From: Cylindrospermopsis raciborskii Cr2010
GTDB taxonomy: Bacteria; Cyanobacteriota; Cyanobacteriia; Cyanobacteriales; Nostocaceae
DNA: 32,000 nucleotides
Assembly: GCF_003367075.2 (NCBI RefSeq)
Contig: NZ_CP065936.1
Span: 3,720,001 to 3,752,000, forward strand
Reading direction: 5' to 3'
Shown: positions 3,706 through 19,769 of the stretch, piece after piece
Position numbering within the stretch: the stretch's first letter is position 1
Layout: each line of letters begins with the position of its first letter
The notes under the pieces: generated by a model
Database searches by the model: none
Told to the model about the DNA's origin: nothing
The model's input: the letters and a program-made list of their open reading frames with translations, nothing else
Translations under genes and position numbers: made by a program

Positions 3706-4680
3706 CTAAATCGCAGATACAACCTCTGTGGACTTAGCATAGAGGTTGTCAATAGCATACTTAACAACTAATGACTCTTCTGTTGCATGACAAGAAGTTT
3801 TTAGGATTCGGGTTTTGACCGTATCTTTGATAAGTTTGGCTTGAAGAGTATATAAACAACCAGCAGAATTTTCATAACTTAGCTCTGCTAATATTGTATT
3901 ATTGTCCATACTCTGTTCTAACACTCTTCCTGACACCTTGTTATTAAACCAATCCCATCCCTGAATATAAATTATTTCCCTCTCTAAAACCTGTAACGCT
4001 GGTGGTAAAAGGCCCCACCCACGATAAACCCTATCTAGGATTTTAATGTCTCCAGCACGAAATAAAATCGCTTGTAAAGACTGTTGATCCAATAATCCAT
4101 AGTATCTAGCTTCTGGTAAATCTATGGCTGTGGGGGCGAAACGATGTCCACCAATATGACTAGATCTCCAAATTCTCACTTCCTCTAATTGCAACTCCAC
4201 AATTGTCTTCTGGGCGTGAAAATAAAAGGGGTTGCCATACCTAGCACAACATTGATCATGACTGCCATGGGTACAAATAAGAATATCCCTAGTAAATTTA
4301 TTTTGTATTTTGTAATCACTGTTTTCACCCGCCAACCATTTTCTCACTTCTCCCTCTACTAACTCAATATCCGGCAACCTAAATTCTCGCTTAATATAAC
4401 TTTTTGTTAAACCCTGGGGTTTATGATAGATCAGCAGTGTGGTTTCTTGATTTTTATGGGAATCTTCCTTGGCAATCAATAAGAATCTAATTGGTAGTTT
4501 CTTACTTTGTAACTCCCTGTGTAGCAATTGCAGGTTACTAGGTACCCATTTGGAGCCAAATGCTTCTGATATCCAAGGAGGTGGACATTCTACTAAAATA
4601 TAAGTTTGGTAGTTGGTTGCACTACCAATTATTTCTTCTCCTATTTGTCGTGAGTAGTCCGAGCAAAAAAAATTTTTCAT
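3706..4680 (-). CDS. Sucrase/ferredoxin-like (thioredoxin-like [2Fe-2S], Apd1/Aim32-type) protein
   Basis: This 324-aa ORF contains ILICTHGSHDQCCARYG (Cys-x8-Cys) and, further downstream, SSHIGGHRF (HxGGH). That is the 2Cys/2His ligand arrangement described for Apd1/Aim32-type thioredoxin-like ferredoxins (Suc_Fer-like family). Confidence 0.65.
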   Translation of the reverse strand: MKNFFCSDYSRQIGEEIIGSATNYQTYILVECPPPWISEAFGSKWVPSNLQLLHRELQSKKLPIRFLLIAKEDSHKNQETTLLIYHKPQGLTKSYIKREFRLPDIELVEGEVRKWLAGENSDYKIQNKFTRDILICTHGSHDQCCARYGNPFYFHAQKTIVELQLEEVRIWRSSHIGGHRFAPTAIDLPEARYYGLLDQQSLQAILFRAGDIKILDRVYRGWGLLPPALQVLEREIIYIQGWDWFNNKVSGRVLEQSMDNNTILAELSYENSAGCLYTLQAKLIKDTVKTRILKTSCHATEESLVVKYAIDNLYAKSTEVVSAI

Positions 4681-5257
4681 GTTACCTTTAGCAATTATTT
4701 TTTTAAGTTAGTCATTGGAAAAATTGTGTTGACAACTACTATTTTTGCAAATCATGGCGATTTCCATAAACTTGGTAAATTAACCACTAGAATTAACAAT
4801 ATTTTATTAATAATCTATTGTGACATACTCCCTCTGATTTTACTTTTTAAAATAAATTTTGATTTACTTTAAATATACTTTAAATTCCCTTAATAACCTC
4901 TATATACGCAATTAGTCGTACCTAATATATTTTAATATTTTGCCTTTACGCATTAGTATGTTCTTAGTCATAACTATGAGCGATCCTTAAATGAGAAAAA
5001 TTCCTAATTGTTGGCATGGGAGAGACTTAGGGGTTGTGTGCAGTTTTTAGTCCATAACTCATCCACTGCAAGGCGAATTTTAGCTTTTTGTGGGAAGTAT
5101 AGCAATTAAGTGATAATGGTAACAGAATCATTGCCAAAAGACAAGAGTGAGATATAGCATATTTTTAATAATTTTTCTCAATACTTGTACATGGTCAATG
5201 GAATTGAAAATTTCCGATTATTCTGAATTATTATGTGAGCATAGGAGTTAAAAACGT

Positions 5258-6250
5258 ATGACATTAATATTGGCCCTGGACTTCGGGGGAACTAAGTTGG
5301 CCGCAGGTACTGTAGAAGCAGACGCAAGAGAATGGTTACGCCGTGAGAGTCAGTTATCACCCAAAAATGGGGACGCATTAAATGACCTAGAAATCATGCG
5401 ATCGCTCATCAGTGCTGTACTAGACAATCGTAGAGCGGATGCCATAGGAGTTAGTTTTGGTGGACCAGTGGATGCACAAACGGGAATAGTCAGACTATCT
5501 CATCATGTACCTGGTTGGGAAAATATTCCGTTGAAACTGCTATTAGAAGAGGAATATAAAGCTCCAGTTAGTATAGACAATGATGCGAACGTGGCTGCCA
5601 TAGGGGAGCATCGGTTTGGTTCTGGGCAGGGATACGACAGTTTGTTTTATATTACCATAAGTACAGGAGTAGGCGGAGGATGGATTTTAAATAATCAACT
5701 TTGGCAAGGTACAGGAGGGATGGCGGGGGAAATTGGTCATGTAGTAGTAGACCCTAGGGGTCCAGTATGTTTATGTGGTAAAAGAGGGTGTGTAGAGCGT
5801 TTTGCATCGGGTCCTTACATTGCCCAAAATGCCAGAGAATTATTAGAAAAAGTGGCACAACAATCGACCAGTTCTGGTGAGAATGTCCAGGGAGATATAC
5901 TACGAAAGTTAGTAGGTAATAATTTGGATTTAATCACTGGGCAAATAGTCAGTTTAGCAGCATCAAATGGAGATGAGTTAGCAAAATCGGTTTTATATAC
6001 AGCAGCTTGGGCTTTAGGAGTAGGTATTGGCAATGTGGCTAACTTGATCAATCCCCAGAGATTTATCTTGGGGGGTGGGGTTACAAAAGCAGGGGATAGT
6101 TTTTGGACCATTGTGAGAAAAACAGCCCATCAAACTGCTTTACCAGAGGTGAATTTCGAGATTGTGCGAGCGGTTTTAGGAGATGATGCTCCATTGTGGG
6201 GAGCGGTAGCTTTGGGTTTAGATATTGGCTATTCTGGATACAGAATCTGA
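5258..6250 (+). CDS. ROK-family sugar kinase (glucokinase-like)
   Basis: The N-terminal LALDFGGTKLAAG (DxGGT phosphate-1 motif), DNDANVAAIGE, GEIGH and the zinc motif CLCGKRGCVE are together diagnostic of ROK kinases. The substrate is not assignable from the sequence. Confidence 0.85.
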   Translation: MTLILALDFGGTKLAAGTVEADAREWLRRESQLSPKNGDALNDLEIMRSLISAVLDNRRADAIGVSFGGPVDAQTGIVRLSHHVPGWENIPLKLLLEEEYKAPVSIDNDANVAAIGEHRFGSGQGYDSLFYITISTGVGGGWILNNQLWQGTGGMAGEIGHVVVDPRGPVCLCGKRGCVERFASGPYIAQNARELLEKVAQQSTSSGENVQGDILRKLVGNNLDLITGQIVSLAASNGDELAKSVLYTAAWALGVGIGNVANLINPQRFILGGGVTKAGDSFWTIVRKTAHQTALPEVNFEIVRAVLGDDAPLWGAVALGLDIGYSGYRI

Positions 6251-6355
6251 TTAAATGAGATATTATTAAATTATATTATATAGATTACAAATCCATAGAA
6301 ATTGTGTAAATCCTGAACAGCTCTACAAACTCCAAAATGATTCCACAGGATAAAC

Positions 6356-7105
6356 ATGACCATTCCTTTACTACAATATTCTCCATCCAGTCAAAACCAA
6401 AGAGTAAAAAGTTTTGAAATTCCTGGAGATGAAAATCCGCCAGTTTACACCATGGAAGGTAGTCCTTCTATCCCAGAGGTTAATGAATTAATTTGGGCTG
6501 CTTATCGGCAAATTTTTAATGAGCAGCAAATTTTGAGGAGTAATCGTCAGTTAACCCTGGAGTCCCAATTAAAACACAATAGCATTAGCGTCAGAGATTT
6601 TATTAGAGGACTATTGTTATCAGAGACCTTTCGTTTACGGAACTACGACACGAACAATAATTATCGCTTCGTAGAAATGTGTATCCAGAGAGTGTTGGGA
6701 AGAAACGTCTACAGTAAACAAGAAACCATGGCTTGGTCAATAATTTTGGGAACAAAAGGAAGACAAGGTTTCATTGATGCACTGCTCAATAGTGAGGAAT
6801 ATGAAAGTAATTTTGGTGATTATACAGTTCCCTATCATCGGCGAAGAGTAATTGCCCAACATAGTATGGGAGAATTACCTTTTAGCCAATTTCCCCGTTA
6901 TGATCAGTATTATCGTCAACAACTAGAGAATTTGGGTTATTTCCAAAATAAAGCGCCTCTAAGCTATCTATGGAAATGGCAACAACCTCCTTACCATCCA
7001 ATTTATCTAGTCTTATCATCAGGCTTTGGAATATTAGGAAATCTGTTGATTTTAGCTGGGACAATTTATGTGATTCTCACTTATTATGGTCTAGTTAATT
7101 TTTAA
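6356..7105 (+). CDS. cpcL: Phycobilisome rod-core linker, CpcL (CpcG2/G3) type, with a C-terminal membrane anchor
   Basis: The CpcG-type N-terminus MTIPLLQYSPSSQNQRV is present. A PBS-linker domain follows (IWAAYRQIFNEQQIL..SVRDFIRGLLLSETF..NNNYRFVEMCIQRVLGR..ALLNSEEYESNFGDYTVPY). A hydrophobic tail IYLVLSSGFGILGNLLILAGTIYVILTYYGLV occupies the last ~35 aa, as in Synechocystis CpcG2/CpcL. Confidence 0.85.
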   Translation: MTIPLLQYSPSSQNQRVKSFEIPGDENPPVYTMEGSPSIPEVNELIWAAYRQIFNEQQILRSNRQLTLESQLKHNSISVRDFIRGLLLSETFRLRNYDTNNNYRFVEMCIQRVLGRNVYSKQETMAWSIILGTKGRQGFIDALLNSEEYESNFGDYTVPYHRRRVIAQHSMGELPFSQFPRYDQYYRQQLENLGYFQNKAPLSYLWKWQQPPYHPIYLVLSSGFGILGNLLILAGTIYVILTYYGLVNF

Positions 7106-9039: not shown

Positions 9040-10638
9040 TTAATAACCAAAACTATCCTCAGCTATGGGAAAAGCATAGTTAGAGAATAGGGAGTAATGA
9101 TTAATTTCATTATTGGTTTCTTGGTCGAGCACATGAATAACCCGATTATGAATTTCTTCTGCTTGTTCAGGGGAATTGCCAATGCTAGTTAAACCTAGTT
9201 TGCCAAACTGAGAAATACAACCCATCAGATGAAATACAGTTCCTGTTTCTGTTCCACTCTCAAAATGTAATCGGTGATGGGCAATAATATCCATTAAGTC
9301 ACTGGGTAATAGCCCACGGTAGGAGTCTTTTTGTAAATTGTCCGTAGCAACATAATATTTAGGTTTTCCTTGCTGACTGTAAAATAACCCGGTGGATAAA
9401 TCATAGCTCCCATTGGTTAATAACTTTAAAGTCATAAAGGGGTGAGTAGTACCGCCTTTACGTAAATTAATTTCAATAGCTTGGATATCCCATTTACCAT
9501 TACCTTGATCCACTACTACAAAATCCACGCCAAATCTTTCCAATGCTCCTTTTTCTGCCAGTTTTTTGCCTACAGCTAAACCAATATCTTGTAATTCTAC
9601 TCTATAATTCTCATTAGCTGGAAACCGACACCCTAGATAAATTTGTCCATCCGGACCACCTAGAATTTGATCATGGGTGGAAAGTATTTCTACTGTCCCA
9701 TCGGGGGTGATTCTTCCCTGCACACTGGGAGAATATTTGATTTCACCTTCTATAAATGATTCGGCGATCGCTCCCATTTCTAAAATAAGTTGAGAGAAGG
9801 TTATCCAATTTTCTTGTTGAGCTTGAAAACGTAGATTGACAAAGCTTTTTTCAATGGCTTCTGCTCTTTCAACATGGTTGGTTTTACCGGGAGCAAAATC
9901 TCTTAAAGGAAACAAATTTAAGATGGCATTTCCCTTTCCAGATATACCCTGGTTTAGTTTGACAACTATTTTTTTTAAATGTGGTTGACGTTCCCACAAC
10001 TTAGCCACTTCCCTGGCCAGCTCTTTTGCATTCCAGACCAACTTACTACCATCTGGATGAGGTACACCAGTTTGGGCAAAAATTTCTCGACTACCACTTT
10101 TTGTTCCCCAAATCTGTAAATCTGGCGCAGCAGCATACAGAGGTATATTCAGTTTTAGAGATAACTCTGCTTCCCAAAATGTGGAGTTATAACAACTTAT
10201 AAAAGCTTTATCTACCTGTAATGCTTGGCGTATTCTTTCTATTAATCGGGGGCGTTCTAAGATTTTTTGACTGAGCGGTTTTAAAGAAGAATCGTAGGTA
10301 GAAAGCATTAATAGACGATGGCGAGCATGGGAAAAAGGAATTCCCGGTAGCAATTGTAAATAATAGTCAATAATGCTAGGATGTATGGGCATTGATGTGA
10401 CATAAATTAATCTATTTCGGGGGTTGCGCAAACGAATGAGAGAAAATAGTAATCTTTCTTCATAATGCTCGCAACCTTGAACTTTTTCTAGTTCTCGCTG
10501 ATCAATACTCAAGGAAGGTATGATTAAAATATCAGTCTCACTATTGTCAAATATCTCACTGGGTTTCCATCGCTCCCCTAGGGTTGATTGTAAACTACGA
10601 AATTGTTCAATTCCTGGTAATATATCTTTCTCAGTCAT
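9040..10638 (-). CDS. ATP-grasp-fold ligase-like protein (possibly PGM1-type peptide ligase related)
   Basis: This is a 532-aa ORF. The C-terminal half carries ATP-grasp-like elements: VVKLNQGISGKGN, ESFIEGE, and the Mg-ligand motif IEINLRKGGTTHP (E-x-N-x-R). The N-terminal ~200 aa is of unknown type. The assignment rests on motif memory only. Confidence 0.5.
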   Translation of the reverse strand: MTEKDILPGIEQFRSLQSTLGERWKPSEIFDNSETDILIIPSLSIDQRELEKVQGCEHYEERLLFSLIRLRNPRNRLIYVTSMPIHPSIIDYYLQLLPGIPFSHARHRLLMLSTYDSSLKPLSQKILERPRLIERIRQALQVDKAFISCYNSTFWEAELSLKLNIPLYAAAPDLQIWGTKSGSREIFAQTGVPHPDGSKLVWNAKELAREVAKLWERQPHLKKIVVKLNQGISGKGNAILNLFPLRDFAPGKTNHVERAEAIEKSFVNLRFQAQQENWITFSQLILEMGAIAESFIEGEIKYSPSVQGRITPDGTVEILSTHDQILGGPDGQIYLGCRFPANENYRVELQDIGLAVGKKLAEKGALERFGVDFVVVDQGNGKWDIQAIEINLRKGGTTHPFMTLKLLTNGSYDLSTGLFYSQQGKPKYYVATDNLQKDSYRGLLPSDLMDIIAHHRLHFESGTETGTVFHLMGCISQFGKLGLTSIGNSPEQAEEIHNRVIHVLDQETNNEINHYSLFSNYAFPIAEDSFGY

Positions 10639-11153: not shown

Positions 11154-12698
11154 TTAAATGGTGTCGTCCCCTGAAGCAGAAAAGTTCTCCCAGGAACGCA
11201 GGGCCCGCAATTGGGGGGTTTTCTTTAATTGATGGGCTTCCATCCTAGTAAGCACATCATCTAAGATGGTGACAGCTTGGGTAATAAATGGTCCCTTATT
11301 CAACATAACACATTCAGCTCTTTCGGCCATAGCTGCATCTGTCATTTCTCCACGAGATGGGGCACCTTCCTTGACTAAACTCTCTAATACCTGAGTTGCC
11401 CAAATCACTGGAACGTGCGCAGCTTCACACAACCACAGAATTTCTTCTTGTATCTCTGCTAATCTTTGATAGCCAATTTCTACCGCTAGATCCCCCCTAG
11501 CAATCATTACTCCAAAGGGGTGTTTCCCCGCTGCATGAACAATTAGTTCGGGTAGGTTAGTAACTGCTACAGCGGTTTCAATCTTGGCAATAATCGCTGG
11601 ATGTTCTCCCTGCAAGCATCTTTGCGCCAGTTCGCTTTGTAATAGTTGGATATCTGTTGTTTGTTGGACAAAGGAATAACCAATAATGTCCGCATGGGTA
11701 GCTAGGAAGTCTAAATCAGTTAGATCCTTTGGTGTGAGCGGAATTAGGGGTAATACTATGTTGGGAAAATTTAGTCCCTTTTCTGGAGATAGCTTCACTC
11801 CCTTGGGTTTAGCATGGGTCACCTCCAATAAAAACCCAGAACTACCATCTGGTAAAGGATAATCTTGATCAACTACCCGAGTACGTAATTTACCATCGTC
11901 AATATAAACTAAGGTGCCCACTGTTAGTAAGTCCAGAATTTCTGGTACTGTACAACTAATGTGAATATTATCTATAGGATCTGCGATCGCTTGGTTAGAT
12001 AAACTACGACACAAAACAATTAAATCTCCTCGGAAGACGCGATTTTTACCTGCAGGGGCTAAAACTATTTCGGTGCGAATTTTTGGACCACCTAAATCCA
12101 TCATCACTGTACATTGAGATGAAAGTTCTTGTTCAGCTTGACGAATGTTCTGAATCATCTTTTCCCAAATAATAGGATTGTCATGGGCGCAGTTTATTCT
12201 TAAACAAGTTGCACCTCGCTCAATTATCTCCCGCACCATTTCATATTCACTAGCAGCTTCTGTGGGTAGGGTGACCATAATTCTCACCCGACGATGGGGT
12301 AACGCTGGACCAAATAAGCACTCTGTCTGTTCTCTTAACCTATTCTCTCCCTCAAAAAAAGATGTGAGAACAGGACGAGTAACAGGAGCAGGAATGGGAA
12401 CTTCGCAAATTAATGCTAGAGTAGCAATAACCGCATCTAGATTAGCCATCACCCTTGCTTCTATACGACCCAAAGAAGATAAACCCCAAGGCATAAGAGC
12501 AGCTTGCAAAGGACGCAGGTCGTGTCTCCGCAGGGCTAAATACTGGGCTAGGTTGAGGGCGCTAGGGAGAAATTGGGAACGCTGGATGTGCGATCGCCAT
12601 TGGTCAAAAATAGCTTTCCCATCTCTTTCTACTGCTTCTCGAAGGTTGAGCAAGCTATCTAATAAGATGGGTGGACTTGAGAGATCTGTAATATTCAT
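11154..12698 (-). CDS. Pyruvate kinase family protein, divergent (N-terminal extension, no C-terminal regulatory domain)
   Basis: The A-domain and B-domain signatures of PK are present but altered: RRVRIMVTLP, LRINCAHD (canonical LNFSHG), DLGGPKIRT (DTKGPEIR), IDDGKL, IAKIET (KIEN), IARGDLAVEIG (ARGDLGVEI), VIWATQVLESL, PSRGEMTDAAMA and ECVMLNKG (DAVMLSGE). Confidence 0.75.
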   Translation of the reverse strand: MNITDLSSPPILLDSLLNLREAVERDGKAIFDQWRSHIQRSQFLPSALNLAQYLALRRHDLRPLQAALMPWGLSSLGRIEARVMANLDAVIATLALICEVPIPAPVTRPVLTSFFEGENRLREQTECLFGPALPHRRVRIMVTLPTEAASEYEMVREIIERGATCLRINCAHDNPIIWEKMIQNIRQAEQELSSQCTVMMDLGGPKIRTEIVLAPAGKNRVFRGDLIVLCRSLSNQAIADPIDNIHISCTVPEILDLLTVGTLVYIDDGKLRTRVVDQDYPLPDGSSGFLLEVTHAKPKGVKLSPEKGLNFPNIVLPLIPLTPKDLTDLDFLATHADIIGYSFVQQTTDIQLLQSELAQRCLQGEHPAIIAKIETAVAVTNLPELIVHAAGKHPFGVMIARGDLAVEIGYQRLAEIQEEILWLCEAAHVPVIWATQVLESLVKEGAPSRGEMTDAAMAERAECVMLNKGPFITQAVTILDDVLTRMEAHQLKKTPQLRALRSWENFSASGDDTI

Positions 12699-13940: not shown

Positions 13941-14300
13941 CTATCCCCCCCAGTCGGGACACTTTTCCCCATCCCAACCATAGGGATGCATGGCACAAAC
14001 CAGTAGGTTCCCACCATATACTTCTCCATGATAATTACTACAACCCACACATGCAGGATTTTTCAGTGAATCAGCTTCCACCTCATATGGGAGGTTAGGA
14101 TCTTCCAGATCCCAATAGAACCCCACCACCGGTTCTAACAACTCACTTAAACACGTACCTGCACTCCCAACCTGTTCGCCAATTTCCTCGGTTAAATCGA
14201 AAAGAGTATCCACTATCTCATCGATTTCCTCGAATAGTCTTTCTGCTTCACCAGATACGGTTAAAACAATATCAAGTAATTCTTCTTGCCACCATGTCAT
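13941..14300 (-). CDS. Conserved hypothetical protein: acidic helical N-terminus plus C-terminal Cys/His knuckle
   Basis: This is a 119-aa ORF. The C-terminus is CVGCSNYHGEVYGGNLLVCAMHPYGWDGEKCPDW (CxxC-x14-C-x11-C with two His). I recall this pattern from small cyanobacterial DUF proteins but cannot name the family with certainty. Confidence 0.5.
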   Translation of the reverse strand: MTWWQEELLDIVLTVSGEAERLFEEIDEIVDTLFDLTEEIGEQVGSAGTCLSELLEPVVGFYWDLEDPNLPYEVEADSLKNPACVGCSNYHGEVYGGNLLVCAMHPYGWDGEKCPDWGG

Positions 14301-14341: not shown

Positions 14342-14644
14342 TCACTTGTCTTTCTCTTCCACCTCTTCCACATCCACTATTTCTATCAAACGAGGTTCTG
14401 CGGGGGTGGTTTTATCTGAGTCTGGTGCTGTACCCCGAGACTGCTGAGCCTGTTGGATCATCTCCTCCACAAAACGGCGAGCTTCCTCCGTGGTCATCTG
14501 TCCCTTTGCTTCCATTTCCTCCGCTAATTTTTCAATTTGCGATCGCATTTGGTTGAGGGTTTCACCACCTCTTTCGCCAGCATAAGCCGCTAGACCTACA
14601 CCTAGGTAAAAAGCTTTTTCTACAAGTTTTCCAAAAGCGGGCAT
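14342..14644 (-). CDS. Small helical protein, phasin-like (unknown function)
   Basis: This is a 100-aa ORF. MPAFGKLVEKAFYLGVGLAAYAGE..EKLAEEMEAKGQMTTEEARRFVEEM resembles proteins annotated as phasin-family or hypothetical in cyanobacteria. A GGAG sequence lies 11 nt upstream of the ATG. Confidence 0.45.
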   Translation of the reverse strand: MPAFGKLVEKAFYLGVGLAAYAGERGGETLNQMRSQIEKLAEEMEAKGQMTTEEARRFVEEMIQQAQQSRGTAPDSDKTTPAEPRLIEIVDVEEVEEKDK

Positions 14645-15076: not shown

Positions 15077-15262
15077 TAAGCATTTACAACTGACTACACA
15101 ATACCATGAATTGACTGTTTCCGCTGTTAATAATTCTTAACATTAGGTGGTTGCCAATTTTTTATAGAACAAATATACTAATAAGGTAGTGGAACCTTCC
15201 AGCTGTAGGGTGGGATTGGTTACCCGGTTCATTGTGTTGATCAATTAAGTAGGAGGCAAATT

Positions 15263-15997
15263 ATGACGAACATTGATTCACTATTATCTAGTCATCAAGC
15301 ATTATTAGAAGAACATGCTAAGCAGATTGGATACCAAATCGTAAATATACGCCAGATTGTAGATAAGCGAATGAAGGAGATTCATGATGGGGAAGATCAT
15401 TTACTAGAAGCCCAGTGTGTCGGGTTAAATAGGATAATTGATACTTTACGGACTGATGCTAGATGTATATTATTTACAGAGGGATTTAAAAATTTTCTAG
15501 GCAAACTTGATCACATAGAGTATAGTTGGGACGTGGATTATATAGACATAATTAGAACGGATCCAAGTAATTGGATGTTGGCAAATTTTAAATTGCCCAT
15601 AGGTTTAATGGATTACAAGGTTATAGAGTGTACGAATGCCTATGATGATGAAGAATTTTATACCGGGTATGAGCATGTAGTGTCATTAGAGATAGACGGA
15701 GAAAAAAGTCCCTTAATATTAAATTACAGTCGCGACCGTGATCAGTATATCGAAGAATGTTCTCTGGCAGAAATCGTACAAGAATACGGAGACTGTGATT
15801 TTGAAAGGATCTTGGAAAGTATTACCGAAAAAGAGGAAGAAATTCAACAGTTAGGTCGGGAGATTGCCATACTGGTAGTCTATTCAATCAGTTTGTTTAC
15901 ACTAAAACCATCCGTGTCAGTGTTTGAATATAATTCATCAATTCCGGAAAAGTACTTATCCTGGTTTGCGCCTCCCAAGATATCTGATAACTGTTAA
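15263..15997 (+). CDS. Hypothetical protein, paralog A of a tandem pair (no recognisable domain)
   Basis: This is a 244-aa ORF. A strong Shine-Dalgarno sequence TAGGAGG lies 7 nt upstream of the ATG. It is collinear and homologous to the next ORF along its whole length, which supports both being real genes. Confidence 0.7.
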   Translation: MTNIDSLLSSHQALLEEHAKQIGYQIVNIRQIVDKRMKEIHDGEDHLLEAQCVGLNRIIDTLRTDARCILFTEGFKNFLGKLDHIEYSWDVDYIDIIRTDPSNWMLANFKLPIGLMDYKVIECTNAYDDEEFYTGYEHVVSLEIDGEKSPLILNYSRDRDQYIEECSLAEIVQEYGDCDFERILESITEKEEEIQQLGREIAILVVYSISLFTLKPSVSVFEYNSSIPEKYLSWFAPPKISDNC

Positions 15998-16048
15998 GTT
16001 ATAGATTTACGGTTGCCATTTTTCAACTATATCCATACAAGTAAAACT

Positions 16049-16750
16049 ATGACTAGTATAGACAAAATACTGTTAAAATACAAAGTATTAGTCGAAACCC
16101 ATGCTAATCGATTTCTTCCTCAACTTGATGCTTTATACCATTTCGTAGATGAGTCCATGAAAGAGATTCAAAATACTGAAAGAGAAATATTAGAATCACA
16201 GAATGTAGAGCTGAAGAAGATAATTGATGCTTTGCAGGTTGATCCTCGTATTTTGTTATCGACGGACGAATTTAAGCAGTTTGTAGAGATCCTAGGAATA
16301 GCCGAGTGTTGGTGGGAGTGGGAAGAATTAGAGGATCTACCTGCTATTGACAAAGATCCTACCAATTGGTTACTGGCAAAATTACAACTGCCTTTAATTA
16401 TTAGGGATTATCAAGAATTTGAGGATCCTTATGCCTATGATGACACAAGCACATATACCTTGTATGGATATAAAATTTCCCTAAAACTAGGAAATAGAAT
16501 ATGTACTATGGAGGTAGAGCGTAGGCGTGTTTATGAAAACAGATGCAAAGAGTTTTCTCCGGAGAAGCAGATTGCCTACTACATCTTATCTCCCATTAGG
16601 GATCTATTAAGAAGTATGAATTACTCAGAACAAGAAATAGACCAGCTAGGGGGAGAGATGGGCATATTAGTTTTTTATGTGGCCAAGCTTTTTGAGTTAA
16701 AACCTACAGTGTCAGTATTTGAATACAATTCAATGAAAAGAATTTATTAG
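16049..16750 (+). CDS. Hypothetical protein, paralog B of a tandem pair (no recognisable domain)
   Basis: The start is placed at the ATG at 16049 (MTSIDKILL...) because it aligns with MTNIDSLL of paralog A. The track ORF begins at a TTG 12 codons upstream. The shared C-terminal block is E.EI.QLG.E..ILV.Y...LF.LKP.VSVFEYNS. Confidence 0.7.
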   Translation: MTSIDKILLKYKVLVETHANRFLPQLDALYHFVDESMKEIQNTEREILESQNVELKKIIDALQVDPRILLSTDEFKQFVEILGIAECWWEWEELEDLPAIDKDPTNWLLAKLQLPLIIRDYQEFEDPYAYDDTSTYTLYGYKISLKLGNRICTMEVERRRVYENRCKEFSPEKQIAYYILSPIRDLLRSMNYSEQEIDQLGGEMGILVFYVAKLFELKPTVSVFEYNSMKRIY

Positions 16751-16761
16751 GAAATAAACAG

Positions 16762-17583
16762 ATGGAATTATATTTTAGTACTTCTGCCTATGGTGGAACA
16801 TCAACCCGTCAAGTTTTGACCATGTTCTGGGAATTAGGAATCAAGGAGGTAGAACTAGCAATTGGTCCACGCTGTGATCGGGATGCAGTCAAAGCGATTA
16901 CAGAATTTCAGCAAAAAGGCATGACTTATAGGGCTCATCATGCCTTTGTGTGGGGAGAAACTCACAAAAGCTTCAACCTAGCGGAACCCCAGGAATGGAG
17001 CTATTTTGAGCGCATGATGGACTGGTTAGGAGATTTAAAAGTAACAGCGTATTCTGTTCATGGAGGAGATTTTCATAGAGGTCAAGAGAGAGAAAAAGCC
17101 TATGGGCAGTTTAAAGAAAATGTTCAAAATTTACAACAAATCTGTGAAAAGCGGGGAATTGTCCTGGGGGTAGAGACCATGTATCCCACACCTCCTAATA
17201 GTTGGAATTACTATCTGTTGGATAACAGTTGGGAATTGACCCGATTTTGTGAGGAGCTACCTGAGATGAAAATCGTAGTTGATTTAGCACATGTTAATAT
17301 TTGGCGTAATCAGAGCTTGTCAGAAAAACTAGAGTGGCTAAAACTTCCATCAGAGAGGATTTTGGAGATTCATATATCTGATAACGATGGCAAAAGAGAT
17401 ATACATTCACCAATTACAGACAGCACCTGGTGGGTTCCATACGCAGCACAGATTCCTAGAGCAATCCCCATCGTAATAGAGAGTAGATTAAATAGGTTTC
17501 CCCCATCAATTGTCAAAGAACAGTACTTGTACACCCACAACCTGCTCAACCACAGTCCATCAACTTCCCTCGTCTCCAGGTAA
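16762..17583 (+). CDS. Sugar phosphate isomerase/epimerase family protein (xylose-isomerase-like TIM barrel)
   Basis: This is a 273-aa ORF. It has the pattern of barrel strands ending in metal ligands that is typical of the family: EVELA, SVHGG, GVETMYP, VDLAHVNIW and EIHISDNDGKRDIH. The substrate is unknown. Confidence 0.65.
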   Translation: MELYFSTSAYGGTSTRQVLTMFWELGIKEVELAIGPRCDRDAVKAITEFQQKGMTYRAHHAFVWGETHKSFNLAEPQEWSYFERMMDWLGDLKVTAYSVHGGDFHRGQEREKAYGQFKENVQNLQQICEKRGIVLGVETMYPTPPNSWNYYLLDNSWELTRFCEELPEMKIVVDLAHVNIWRNQSLSEKLEWLKLPSERILEIHISDNDGKRDIHSPITDSTWWVPYAAQIPRAIPIVIESRLNRFPPSIVKEQYLYTHNLLNHSPSTSLVSR

Positions 17584-17618: not shown

Positions 17619-19769
17619 ATGACTGCGTTTTTATTAGAAGTTGGCACAGAAGAACTACCAGCAAGCTTTTTGAGTAGCGCGATTACACAATGGCGATCGC
17701 GCATTCCCCAAATGCTGGAAGCTCATGGTCTCCCCATAGAAAAAGTAGCGGTTTTTGGTACCCCTCGTAGATTAGCAGTGCTGATCACCGGGTTACCATC
17801 CCAGCAACTGGATCGGGAAGAAGAAATTAAGGGACCACCTGCCCAAGCAGCATTTAAAGATGGTAAACCAACCAAAGCAGCAGAAGGGTTCGCTAAAAAG
17901 CAAGGGGTAGAATTATCTGCTTTAGAGGTTCGTTCTACAGATAAGGGGGATTTTATCTTTGTCAATAAAAAGACCCCAGGGAGACCCATAACAGAAATTT
18001 TGACCGAACTAGTTCCCCAATGGGTTTGGAGCTTAGAAGGAAAGCGGTTAATGCGCTGGGGGAGTGGGGATGGGAGGTTTTCTCGTCCTATTCGCTGGTT
18101 AGTTGCTTTATTGGATGGGGATGTTTTACCCTTAGAATTAAGAAATGGGGAAAAAATAGTTAAGAGCGATCGCATTTCCTGGGTACATAGGGTTTTACAT
18201 CGGGGAAGGGTGAGTATTTCCCATGCGACAGAATATGTGGAAACATTGGCCAATGGTTATGTGATAGTTTGTCCAGAGGAGCGGGAGAAAATAATTGTAG
18301 AGCAGGTAAATAGAGCTGTAGAAGAGTTGGGTGGTTGTACAGAAATCTATCCAGAGTTGTTGGCAGAAACTACCAATTTAGTAGAATATCCCACAGCGGT
18401 GGTGGGTAGATTTGAAGATGAATTTCTCCAATTACCAACAGAAGTATCCACCACTGTCATGGTTACCCACCAGCGTTACTTCCCAGTTTTTAAAAACCGG
18501 GATGGAAGAGAACTACTACCAAACTTTGTCACCATATCCAATGGCGATCCAGCAAAATCAGATATTATTGCACTGGGTAATGAGAGAGTAATTCGAGCGC
18601 GGTTAGCAGATGGGAGATTTTTCTATGAAGCGGATTTAGCCAAGTCTCTAGAAGAGTTTTTACCCCAATTAGAAACAGTTACATTTCAAGAAGATCTAGG
18701 TTCTGTGCGAGCCAAAGTCACAAGAATCGGGAATATAGCCCAGGTGATTTGTCAACAATTGGGATTAGGAGAAACTGAAACCGAGAGAGTGCAAAGAGCT
18801 GCTCTATTGTGCAAAGCGGATTTAGTCACCCAAATGGTATATGAATTTCCCGAATTACAAGGTATCATGGGTGAAAAATATGCCCTAGCTAGTAGAGAGG
18901 ATGAGGAAGTAGCTAAAGCCATTTTTGAGCATTATCTACCCAGAAATGCTGATGACATTTTGCCCACCACCCTCACAGGGAAAATCGTGGGCTTAGCTGA
19001 TAGACTAGATACCCTAATTAGCATCTTTGGTTTAGGTTTAATTCCCTCTGGTTCCTCCGATCCCTTTGCCTTACGTCGGGCCGCCAATGCCATTGTGAAT
19101 ATTACCTGGGTTGCTAACCTACCAATAAATTTGGAGTATTTATTAGAGTACACAGCAACTTCCTTTGCTCACACTTTCCATAAAGATGCTCAATCTTTAA
19201 TATCCATCCTGCGAGAATTTTTCATCCAACGTATTCGCACCCTACTCCAAGAAGAAAAACACATAGATTACGATCTAGTTAACGCCGTGTTAGGAGAACA
19301 GGATCCGGAATATATAGAACGCGCACTACAGGATCTACTAGACATTCGCGATCGCGCCACCTATCTACAACAAATCCGCCATAATGGCACCCTAGAGAGA
19401 ATCTATGAAACCATCAATCGTTCCACTAGGTTAGCAGCACAGGGGGATTTAGACTTGCAACAGTTAATCCCGGATGAATTAATTAATCCCACATTGTTTC
19501 AAAAATCATCCGAGACTGCCCTTTATCAAGCCCTAGTAGCATTAGTGCCCCAGACCCAACTTGCACAACAAACGCGCAACTATCAGTTACTAATAGCCGC
19601 CCTGGAAAAAATTGCCCCCACGGTCAGCCAATTCTTTGACGGAGAAGATAGTGTGCTAGTTATGGATCCAGACCCACACATTAAACGCAATCGGTTGAAT
19701 TTACTAGGTCTACTACGTAACCACGGTCGAATTTTAGCAGATTTTGGAGCCATCGTCAAAAACTTGTAG
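17619..19769 (+). CDS. glyS: Glycine--tRNA ligase beta subunit
   Basis: The canonical GlyS N-terminus [18 protein letters not shown] is present, the predicted length is 716 aa, and the LRRAANAIV anticodon-binding-region motif is present. The start is set at the ATG at 17619 rather than the TTG at 17598. Confidence 0.95.

What the first reader, a model, noticed from the sequence alone, without database searches (positions are those of the whole stretch)
15263..17583. Tandem pair of divergent paralogous ORFans tightly packed with a TIM-barrel enzyme directly upstream of glyS
Two same-strand ORFs of 244 aa and about 233 aa are clearly homologous to each other along their whole length. They share these blocks: MT.ID, VD..MKEI, LE.Q.V.L..IID.L, DP.NW.LA..LP, DY, AYDD and E.EI.QLG.E..ILV.Y...LF.LKP.VSVFEYNS. 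By eye, roughly a third of positions are identical. I cannot match either ORF to any characterised family. Neither has a TM segment, a signal peptide, a nucleotide-binding motif or a catalytic motif. Each has a helical N-terminal ~75 aa, an acidic middle region (paralog B has a Trp-rich patch ECWWEWEELED) and a highly conserved C-terminal strand motif. The first gene has a strong TAGGAGG ribosome-binding site. The spacings are 51 nt, 11 nt and 35 nt to paralog B, to a xylose-isomerase-like TIM-barrel gene and to glyS, which suggests one transcription unit. An old duplication kept as an adjacent pair suggests a heteromeric complex or a sensor/partner pair. This is the least explainable coding content in an otherwise housekeeping window.
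Basis: partly seen in the sequence, partly recalled or inferred. Interest (0 to 1): 0.7.

Follow-up and report, generated by a model that had tools for sequence, protein, structure and literature searches.

The report
Duplicated partner gene of TIM-barrel cassette
The two look-alike genes are real paralogs from an undescribed protein family whose conserved partner is the TIM-barrel enzyme gene next door; this two-gene cassette moves between cyanobacteria on plasmids and integrative elements, and its function is unknown.

Summary
A (15263-15997, 244 aa) and B (16049-16750, 233 aa) are full-length paralogs (38% identity, E=3e-45), followed by a PF01261 TIM-barrel gene and glyS at the stated spacings.

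They are not strict ORFans. A profile search finds 111 family representatives, almost all cyanobacterial. None matches Pfam, NCBIfam, PHROGs, PADLOC or PDB sequences. A confident AlphaFold model (pLDDT 90) has no Foldseek neighbour in PDB or BFVD.

The conserved unit is partner + TIM barrel, not A + B. A family member sits beside a TIM ortholog in 13/13 partner-seeded and 5/5 TIM-seeded loci. The junction is usually an overlapping TGATG/TAATG with a Shine-Dalgarno inside the partner's last codons. Nothing else is conserved nearby.

The cassette lies on conjugative plasmids and next to integrases, relaxases and transposases. Extra or orphan partner copies are common. The A/B duplication is specific to Cylindrospermopsis, and Raphidiopsis brookii D9 has lost B but kept A and the TIM gene. 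An obligate A-B heteromer is therefore unlikely.

The TIM clade keeps an invariant His/Asp/Glu set that aligns with 8 of 9 endonuclease IV metal ligands.

Best guess (inferred): the acidic partner binds and controls a metal-dependent TIM-barrel enzyme, as in a toxin-antitoxin or defence module.

The parts
15151..15179 (+). Promoter-like site (TTGCCA-17-TATACT) about 85 nt upstream of gene A
   Evidence: Consensus scan, 10/12 match. The number of such sites in the region is no higher than in shuffles, so this is weak evidence only. No + strand terminator-like site lies between here and glyS.
15250..15256 (+). Shine-Dalgarno TAGGAGG for gene A
   Evidence: Read directly from the sequence.
15263..15997 (+). 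Paralog A, 244 aa. It is the divergent extra copy of the partner family and carries a C-terminal extension (PEKYLSWFAPPKISDNC).
   Evidence: The exact protein occurs on 101 contigs, named 'MULTISPECIES: hypothetical protein [Cylindrospermopsis]'. dN/dS against R. brookii D9 is 0.31. AF2 model has pLDDT 90.3 and pTM 0.78. pI is 4.5.
16049..16750 (+). Paralog B, 233 aa. It is the copy closer to the single-copy partner genes of other cyanobacteria (39-46% identity, against 35-40% for A).
   Evidence: The exact protein is WP_115538382.1 of C. raciborskii Cr2010, and its cluster representative is on 85 contigs. Internally deleted in R. brookii D9.
16762..17583 (+). Xylose-isomerase-like TIM-barrel metalloenzyme, 273 aa, of a distinct cyanobacterial clade. 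It is the conserved partner of the A/B family.
   Evidence: PF01261 at E=7e-17. There are 156 homologs at E<1e-5, named only 'sugar phosphate isomerase/epimerase' or 'TIM barrel protein'. Invariant residues include H59 H60 H100 E138 D174 H177 H204 D213 H215 E240. PADLOC PDC-M70B matches at 3.8e-9. dN/dS is 0.19.
17619..19769 (+). glyS, the downstream neighbour. It is not part of the cassette; the adjacency is specific to Cylindrospermopsis/Raphidiopsis.
   Evidence: No cassette locus outside this lineage has glyS nearby.

Best explanation
A and B are a lineage-specific tandem duplication of the first gene of a self-contained, horizontally mobile two-gene cassette. The cassette encodes an acidic ~230-aa protein of a previously undescribed family, then a translationally coupled TIM-barrel enzyme.

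Shown:
- The two families are strictly adjacent across cyanobacterial orders and in myxobacterial MAGs.
- Their junction is usually an overlapping stop/start, with the TIM gene's ribosome-binding site inside the partner's last codons.
- The cassette travels on plasmids and integrative elements.
- The TIM clade keeps an invariant His/Asp/Glu set.

Inferred:
- The partner binds the TIM enzyme roughly 1:1 and controls it, as inhibitor, regulator or specificity subunit.
- Its conserved but unstructured C-terminal P-x4-F-x-Y tail may contribute to that contact.
- The enzyme is a metal-dependent hydrolase (phosphodiesterase or nuclease type) with a multinuclear, endonuclease-IV-like site.
- The pair works like a toxin-antitoxin, effector-immunity or defence module of mobile elements.
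- In Cylindrospermopsis an extra partner copy (A) arose and can substitute for B.
For: Paralogy: E=3e-45.

Family breadth: 111 representatives, with no match in any library. The confident model has no Foldseek neighbour in PDB or BFVD.

Linkage: all 13 partner-seeded genome loci have a TIM homolog immediately downstream, 12 full-length and 1 truncated. All 5 TIM-seeded loci have a partner gene adjacent. No other neighbour is conserved.

Coupling: the junction reads GGGAGGAC-TGATG/TAATG-GAG in most loci.

Mobile context:
- Conjugative plasmids of Aulosira laxa NIES-50 and Nostoc sp. MS1; plasmids of Leptolyngbya NIES-3755 and Anabaena azotica.
- Integrase with relaxase in Nostoc PCC 7524.
- Integrase with GmrSD in Leptolyngbya NIES-2104.
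- Integrase, IS605 transposase and ParB elsewhere.

Asymmetry: partner copies occur without an adjacent TIM gene and in multiple copies per element. I saw no intact TIM gene without a partner. D9 lost B but kept A and TIM.

Selection: A has dN/dS 0.31 and TIM 0.19.

Partner chemistry: median pI 4.8.

TIM metal site: invariant residues align with Nfo H109, E145, D179, H182, H216, D229, H231 and E261.

Defence hint: the TIM protein matches component B of the untested PADLOC candidate PDC-M70 (the candidate set is described in bioRxiv 10.1101/2024.01.29.577857).
Against: - There is no direct evidence of a physical complex. No multimer model could be run.
- No toxin, antitoxin or defence family matches either protein above a curated threshold.
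- The partner has no recognisable DNA-binding domain, which most type II antitoxins have.
- The hhalign match to endonuclease IV is weak overall (E=0.02, probability 2%). The ninth ligand (Nfo H69) does not align to the invariant H59/H60.
- The best sequence-level relatives of the TIM protein are sugar epimerases, though far below their cutoffs.
- PDC-M70 is untested, and only its B component matches, over half the profile.
- In Cylindrospermopsis the cassette is fixed in a core-genome location in every strain sampled. That fits a domesticated cellular function at least as well as a selfish or defence role.
Confidence: 0.4

Rival explanations
1. Two-subunit metabolic enzyme. The TIM barrel is a sugar or sugar-phosphate isomerase/epimerase (or a related small-molecule enzyme). 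The A/B protein is a non-catalytic structural or assembly subunit. The cassette is an accessory metabolic trait spread by plasmids.
For: The best weak hits of the TIM protein are to D-psicose/tagatose 3-epimerases, hydroxypyruvate isomerase and fructoselysine 3-epimerase. Database names say 'sugar phosphate isomerase/epimerase'. The location in Cylindrospermopsis is a stable core-genome site under purifying selection. Translational coupling fits any stoichiometric complex.
Against: All such hits are far below curated cutoffs (25.9 bits against 300). No transporter, kinase or other pathway gene is ever conserved next to the cassette. The extra invariant His/Asp residues (H100, D213, H215) go beyond the four-ligand epimerase site. 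The context is consistently mobile-element. Orphan and multi-copy partner genes are unusual for a structural subunit.
Confidence: 0.25
2. Protein- or peptide-modifying system resembling MNIO (DUF692) enzymes. The TIM barrel carries a multinuclear iron site and oxidatively modifies the conserved C-terminal F-x-Y(-P) tail of the A/B protein. The A/B protein is then both scaffold and substrate, or it presents another substrate.
For: Eight of 40 TIM orthologs give weak hits to NCBIfam RiPP_MNIO_ApyH, best 1.4e-4. The invariant ligand set resembles the multinuclear sites shared by endonuclease IV and MNIOs (the MNIO ligand pattern is from my own recall). MNIOs typically need a partner protein (abstracts of PMC10214503 and PMC12257519). 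The partner's tail is conserved but unstructured in the model, and about one third of aligned members end exactly at F-x-Y-P. The model's beta3-alpha3 segment (residues 113-212) has the same order of elements as a RiPP recognition element; this is my reading, not a tested match.
Against: There is no Pfam DUF692 hit at E<=1. The ApyH score is 16.7 bits against a cutoff of 400. Foldseek against PDB returned no MNIO partner or RRE protein among its top 50 matches, and none of its matches reached E<=0.001. No conserved small precursor ORF flanks the cassette. The myxobacterial members lack the F-x-Y tail. Partner copies not adjacent to a TIM gene keep the tail.
Confidence: 0.12
3. One reading: A and B form an obligate heteromer or a sensor/partner pair, kept together because both are needed.
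For: Both genes are intact, adjacent and essentially invariant in many Cylindrospermopsis assemblies. The long N-terminal helix (residues 4-71) could mediate dimerisation.
Against: Nearly all other genomes carry a single partner gene per cassette. R. brookii D9 retains A and TIM while B has decayed. Copy number varies freely between elements.
Confidence: 0.1
4. Decaying, functionless remnant of a mobile element.
For: B is degraded in D9. Fragments of family members are common in other elements. A evolves faster than its neighbours.
Against: dN/dS is 0.31 for A and 0.19 for TIM. The ORFs are intact on 85-101 contigs. The catalytic residues are invariant across 40 diverse orthologs.
Confidence: 0.03

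Closest known systems
Xylose-isomerase-like TIM barrel superfamily (Pfam PF01261 AP_endonuc_2), in particular endonuclease IV (Nfo)
   Same: The third gene is a bona fide PF01261 member. Its invariant H100, E138, D174, H177, H204, D213, H215 and E240 align with eight of the nine Nfo metal ligands.
   Different: No NCBIfam equivalog or subfamily cutoff is reached. PDB profile hits are only marginal. The clade has its own invariant motifs: YRAHHA, SVHxG, HISDNDG and TWW. Unlike Nfo, it always comes with a dedicated partner gene.
MNIO (DUF692) enzyme plus partner protein of RiPP pathways (MbnB/MbnC, TglH/TglI, ChrH/ChrI, ApyH)
   Same: A TIM-barrel enzyme with a probable multinuclear metal site is encoded next to a ~230-aa non-catalytic partner. 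There are weak ApyH hits.
   Different: There is no DUF692 match, no DUF2063/RRE match for the partner, no precursor peptide gene, and the context is mobile-element rather than biosynthetic.
Type II/IV toxin-antitoxin and abortive-infection two-gene modules (for example AbiEi/AbiEii)
   Same: Both are two-gene cassettes with the acidic first gene translationally coupled to a downstream enzyme. Both are borne on plasmids and integrative elements, show orphan or extra copies of the first gene, and appear never to lose all first-gene copies while the enzyme is intact.
   Different: Neither protein belongs to a known toxin or antitoxin family. No DNA-binding domain was detected. A TIM-barrel toxin has not been described, to my knowledge. 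Toxicity is untested.
PADLOC phage defence candidate PDC-M70 (untested 'guilt-by-embedding' candidate)
   Same: The TIM protein matches component B at E=3.8e-9, and the Leptolyngbya ortholog at 3.8e-10.
   Different: The match covers only the C-terminal half of the TIM protein (residues 156-264 against profile positions 124-229 of 238). No other PADLOC model, including the candidate's other component(s), matches A, B or any of the 53 family members at E<=0.1. The candidate itself has no experimental support.

Membership tests
Pfam PF01261 AP_endonuc_2 (xylose isomerase-like TIM barrel), for the third gene | Profile match above Pfam's gathering score | tested here: met
   62.3 bits against a cutoff of 31.1, E=7.4e-17. 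The same family is precomputed for all 120 listed homologs.
Pfam PF01261 AP_endonuc_2 (xylose isomerase-like TIM barrel), for the third gene | Conserved carboxylate and histidine metal ligands on the barrel strands | tested here: met
   E138, D174, H177, H204 and E240, plus H100, D213 and H215, are invariant in 40 orthologs.
Endonuclease IV (Nfo) | Match to the NCBIfam deoxyribonuclease IV model above its cutoff | tested here: not met
   Only 1 of 40 orthologs hits it, at E=6e-4. The window protein does not.
Endonuclease IV (Nfo) | All nine trinuclear-site ligands present | tested here: inconclusive
   hhalign places 8 of 9 on invariant identical residues. Nfo H69 is not aligned to the invariant H59/H60. 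The overall alignment is weak (E=0.02).
Endonuclease IV (Nfo) | AP-endonuclease or phosphodiesterase activity on DNA | not testable with these tools
   Requires biochemistry.
MNIO / DUF692 RiPP enzymes | Match to Pfam DUF692 or an NCBIfam MNIO model above its cutoff | tested here: not met
   No DUF692 hit at E<=1. ApyH scores 16.7 bits against a cutoff of 400. 8 of 40 orthologs give weak hits.
MNIO / DUF692 RiPP enzymes | Adjacent precursor-peptide gene | tested here: not met
   No small ORF is conserved within 700 nt on either side in 14 cassette loci.
MNIO / DUF692 RiPP enzymes | Partner protein of the MbnC/DUF2063/RRE type | tested here: not met
   No Pfam hit for any of the 53 members. No such structure appears among the top 50 Foldseek PDB matches, and none of the matches reached E<=0.001.
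Sugar(-phosphate) 3-epimerases and isomerases (D-psicose 3-epimerase, L-ribulose-5-P 3-epimerase, hydroxypyruvate isomerase) | Match above the NCBIfam equivalog or subfamily cutoff | tested here: not met
   25.9 against 300 bits and 19.9 against 200 bits. PDB profile hits have E>=0.0018.
Type II toxin-antitoxin module | Two co-oriented, translationally coupled genes on mobile elements, protective gene first | tested here: met
   Overlapping TGATG/TAATG junction with an internal SD. Plasmid and integrase contexts.
Type II toxin-antitoxin module | Either protein belongs to a known toxin or antitoxin family, or the antitoxin has a DNA-binding domain | tested here: not met
   No convincing Pfam, NCBIfam or PADLOC hit for A, B or the 53 members. 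The only such hit is Unstab_antitox at 13 bits against a cutoff of 23.3, which is noise.
Type II toxin-antitoxin module | Toxicity of the second gene, relieved by the first | not testable with these tools
   Requires expression experiments.
PADLOC PDC-M70 candidate system | All components of the candidate present | tested here: not met
   Only component B matches, and only partially. A, B and the family match no PADLOC model.
Any described protein family, for A and B | Sequence or fold match to a curated family or a solved structure | tested here: not met

The most novel reading that the evidence does not exclude
The A/B family has a new fold and defines, together with its dedicated TIM-barrel clade, a new kind of mobile-element system. 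One version is the first TIM-barrel (endonuclease-IV-like metal site) toxin or effector, held in check by an acidic immunity or regulator protein. The other is an MNIO-like enzyme that modifies the conserved C-terminal F-x-Y-P tail of its ~230-aa partner, producing a protein-borne modification rather than a peptide natural product.
Probability: 0.2. Interest if true: 0.8.

Novelty: new variant of a known kind. Interest (0 to 1): 0.55.

Why it matters
The result turns an apparent strain-level oddity into a defined object that can be tested. That object is a widespread but unannotated cyanobacterial protein family with a confident model and no structural neighbour found. It is strictly and translationally coupled to a distinct clade of TIM-barrel metalloenzymes and is carried by plasmids and integrative elements.

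Databases currently label the enzyme 'sugar phosphate isomerase/epimerase'. That label is probably misleading.

If the pair proves to be a toxin-immunity or defence module, it would add a TIM-barrel effector to the repertoire. It would also add a conflict system to cyanobacteria, including the bloom-forming, toxin-producing Cylindrospermopsis, where it is fixed in the core genome. If the enzyme modifies its partner's tail, it would extend MNIO-type chemistry to a folded protein substrate.

Tried and rejected
- The first AF2 model, built from a 9-sequence alignment, was poor (pLDDT 65.7). I replaced it with a model from 53 sequences.
- Foldseek against PDB gave only noise-level Rad52 and LptE hits (TM 0.16-0.25). 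I rejected these as evidence for a Rad52-like annealing protein. BFVD gave nothing.
- The search for related loci with the 53-sequence alignment failed because it had no conserved stretch. I used the 9-sequence alignment instead. This biases that scan towards members carrying the AYDD motif.
- The profile search with the word-indexed tool recovered only 16 members, all 'hypothetical'.
- No phage record encodes the family. PHROGs gave nothing.
- The GIY-YIG fusion in P0029 could reflect effector swapping or a homing-endonuclease insertion. I gave it no weight.
- A classical RiPP cluster is rejected because no precursor ORF is conserved.
- A DNA-mimic or anti-restriction role for the acidic partner was considered but has no specific support.
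- Literature searches for PDC-M70 and for cyanobacterial TIM-barrel plasmid genes found nothing specific.
Full report
**1. Observation**

ORF listing gives A at 15263..15997 (244 aa) and B in the ORF 16013..16750, followed by a 273-aa ORF at 16762..17583 and glyS. All homologs start MT-x-(I/S/V)-(D/N), so B starts at ATG 16049 and is 233 aa.

A against B by BLASTP gives 38% identity over 228 residues, E=3e-45. The TAGGAGG site and the 51/11/35-nt spacings are exact. The third gene is a PF01261 (AP_endonuc_2) TIM barrel, E=7e-17.

**2. The family is undescribed, but these are not ORFans**

Neither protein matches any of the following:
- Pfam or NCBIfam
- PADLOC
- PHROGs
- PDB sequences, by single sequence or by profile

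The word-indexed search found only 7 relatives. The exhaustive profile search found 111 representatives at 50% clustering, 67 of them below 1e-10. All members that carry a name are 'hypothetical protein'. None of 53 diverse members hits a Pfam or PADLOC family beyond single noise hits.

The family is acidic, with median pI 4.8.

With the 53-sequence alignment, AlphaFold gives a confident model of A (pLDDT 90.3, pTM 0.78). Its elements in order are:
- a 68-residue N-terminal helix (residues 4-71) and three shorter helices
- a meander of three long strands plus one short strand (113-165)
- three helices (168-212)
- an unstructured tail

The tail carries the conserved P-x4-F-x-Y motif. About a third of aligned members end exactly at F-x-Y-P.

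**3. The conserved unit is partner + TIM barrel**

A scan of one genome per species found 13 loci, in Raphidiopsis, Anabaena, Anabaenopsis, Iningainema, Scytonema, Stigonema, Plectonema, Nostoc and other cyanobacteria. In all 13, a TIM ortholog follows the family gene directly, at 58-64% identity outside the Raphidiopsis lineage. Twelve are full-length and one is truncated.

All-against-all clustering of the flanks found no other conserved neighbour.

Starting instead from TIM orthologs, 5 of 5 distinct loci have a family member adjacent:
- a Polyangiaceae MAG
- a related metagenome contig (L034)
- a Leptolyngbya NIES-3755 plasmid
- the Leptolyngbya NIES-2104 chromosome
- Nostoc PCC 7524

The junction is typically ...GGGAGGAC-TGATG-GAG-TTG. 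That is an overlapping stop/start, with the TIM gene's Shine-Dalgarno encoded in the partner's last codons. This is a classical signature of translational coupling and of stoichiometric partners. That last step is an inference from established knowledge.

**4. Mobile context and copy number**

The cassette lies in these settings:
- on conjugative plasmids of Aulosira laxa NIES-50 and Nostoc sp. MS1, and on plasmids of Leptolyngbya NIES-3755 and Anabaena azotica
- next to a tyrosine integrase and relaxase in Nostoc PCC 7524
- next to an integrase and an SNF2 helicase in Scytonema
- inside an integrase-bounded island with GmrSD in Leptolyngbya NIES-2104
- beside an IS605 transposase or ParB in other loci

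Elements often carry several family copies or fragments. The NIES-3755 plasmid has five or six, NIES-2104 has two, and a metagenome contig has two plus a remnant fused to the TIM N-terminus.

Copies without an adjacent TIM gene exist. There are also fusions to a GIY-YIG domain and to another ORFan family.

I saw no intact TIM gene of this clade without a partner. The sample is about 20 distinct loci, most of them found by searching with the partner.

**5. The Cylindrospermopsis situation**

The TIM protein is 100% identical to a multispecies Cylindrospermopsis protein. Exact A occurs on 101 contigs. Exact B is WP_115538382.1 of C. raciborskii Cr2010. The YCII / A / B / TIM / glyS arrangement is syntenic in all four further assemblies fetched.

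B is closer than A to the single-copy partners of other genera: 39-46% identity against 35-40%. A and a third, unlinked paralog (P0003) share a C-terminal extension. B is therefore the likely original partner, and A a diverged duplicate.

In R. brookii D9, A (82% identity), TIM (94.5%) and glyS (96%) are intact. Only B residues 1-35 and 173-233 remain.

dN/dS between the window and D9:

| Gene | dN/dS |
|---|---|
| A | 0.31 |
| TIM | 0.19 |
| glyS | 0.11 |
| YCII | 0.08 |

A is a real gene under somewhat relaxed constraint. Losing B while A and TIM are kept argues that A can substitute for B. It argues against an obligate A-B heteromer.

A promoter-like site lies at 15151-15179. No + strand terminator-like site precedes glyS. 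Co-transcription is therefore possible. The glyS adjacency exists only in this lineage.

**6. The enzyme**

Forty orthologs share these invariant residues:
- E31, R57, H59, H60
- Y97, S98, H100, G102
- E138
- D174, H177
- E202, H204, S206, D207, N208, D209
- D213, H215
- T222, W223, W224
- E240, R242

A profile-to-sequence alignment with E. coli endonuclease IV is weak overall (E=0.02). It runs full-length and puts H100, E138, D174, H177, H204, D213, H215 and E240 on Nfo H109, E145, D179, H182, H216, D229, H231 and E261. The Nfo ligand list is from my knowledge of the Nfo structure literature. The ninth ligand, H69, is not matched to H59/H60.

This is more than the four-ligand site of ketose 3-epimerases. 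Those epimerases are nevertheless the best sequence hits, though sub-threshold. Weak hits to the MNIO ApyH model occur in 8 of 40 orthologs.

PADLOC's PDC-M70B matches at 3.8e-9 and 3.8e-10. PDC systems are untested 'guilt-by-embedding' candidates.

I infer a multinuclear metal site and hydrolytic chemistry (phosphodiesterase or nuclease) as most likely. Oxidative chemistry is the alternative. Sequence alone cannot decide.

**7. Mechanism**

Best-supported reading (confidence about 0.4): a self-contained mobile two-gene module in which the acidic partner binds and controls the TIM-barrel metalloenzyme, working like a toxin-antitoxin, effector-immunity or defence pair. A/B is a duplication of the protective or regulatory gene.

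- Shown: strict linkage, translational coupling, mobile context, copy-number asymmetry, conserved catalytic residues, purifying selection.
- Inferred: physical complex, direction of control, substrate class, biological role.

Rivals:
- A two-subunit metabolic enzyme (0.25).
- An MNIO-like enzyme modifying the partner's tail (0.12). Against it: no DUF692 match, no precursor ORF, and no RRE or partner-type structural match.
- Functionless decay (0.03).

**8. Novelty and score**

The enzyme belongs to a known superfamily. The partner family and the cassette are in none of the libraries I searched, and two targeted literature searches found nothing on them. I file it as a new variant of a known kind (a mobile enzyme-plus-partner cassette).

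I put the chance at about 20% that it is something categorically new: a TIM-barrel toxin or effector system, or a protein-tail-modifying enzyme.

Interest is 0.55. It is a well-defined and testable unknown with a probably new fold, but there is no functional evidence yet.

Noticed in passing
L018:1-11664, L021:1-16810, L022:2400-12100, L017:2267-4437: The distant cassette-bearing elements are a metagenome contig, the Leptolyngbya NIES-3755 plasmid and a Leptolyngbya NIES-2104 island. They share a recurring set of same-strand ORFan families with no Pfam, PADLOC or PHROG match. One is a ~300-aa family (ITRNRYNCLILN...LLIVDVDL...RNGLRYLCTT), which is also fused to the A/B N-terminal part in P0066. 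Another is a 130-300-aa 'LYVL...W.C' family in several copies. DUF4240 and Uma2 genes also recur. Together they look like an uncharacterised cyanobacterial mobile-element backbone.
   Followed up: partly
L010 and L016 (Scytonema hofmanni UTEX 2349 contig NZ_KK073767.1, 58720-71403 and 33630-46313 reversed): Two loci fetched in opposite orientation from one contig have the same ORF layout over 12.7 kb. They carry an integrase, the cassette and a 1436-aa SNF2 helicase. This suggests a large inverted duplication or two copies of one integrative element about 12 kb apart.
   Followed up: no
L029:4571-6702 compared with window 17619-19718: In assembly GCA_035282025.1, A and TIM are identical to the window and B differs at two sites. 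The adjacent glyS differs at dS=0.08 (38 synonymous changes). This suggests a recombination boundary between the cassette and glyS.
   Followed up: no
L004:6736-7052 (R. brookii D9); proteins P0075, P0273: The B remnant in D9-type strains is an internal deletion of about 137 codons plus a frameshift. In at least one assembly the C-terminal B fragment appears in a 327-aa product (P0273), possibly a fusion with the TIM protein.
   Followed up: partly
window 9040-10638 (-) and 11154-12698 (-): A 532-aa protein has an IQCH-like ATP-grasp domain plus a PGM1 C-terminal domain, which is peptide-ligase-like. It lies next to a 514-aa protein carrying a pyruvate-kinase barrel domain. This is an unusual pairing that I did not examine.
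   Followed up: no
window 13941-14300 (-) and 14342-14644 (-): Two small conserved genes lie between queF and the YCII gene and have no Pfam family. One is a 119-aa acidic protein with a Cys/His-rich C-terminus (CVGCSNYHG...CAMHPYGW...CPDW). The other is a 100-aa helical protein with only a weak DUF6825 hit. Both are syntenic in all Cylindrospermopsis loci fetched.
   Followed up: no
L023:1883-3025 and 3749-7051; L010:7776-12086: A family member fused to an N-terminal GIY-YIG nuclease domain (P0029) is followed by an 1100-aa SNF2 helicase. The Scytonema cassette also abuts a 1436-aa SNF2 helicase. This may be a recurrent association or may be coincidence.
   Followed up: no
L025:9296-9993 and L026:6107-6804: On both Nostocales conjugative plasmids, a pair of overlapping small genes lies within about 1 kb of the cassette. 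One is DUF5674 and the other is a ~120-aa hypothetical protein. They lie downstream of the cassette in L025 and upstream in L026, on the opposite strand from it in both.
   Followed up: no
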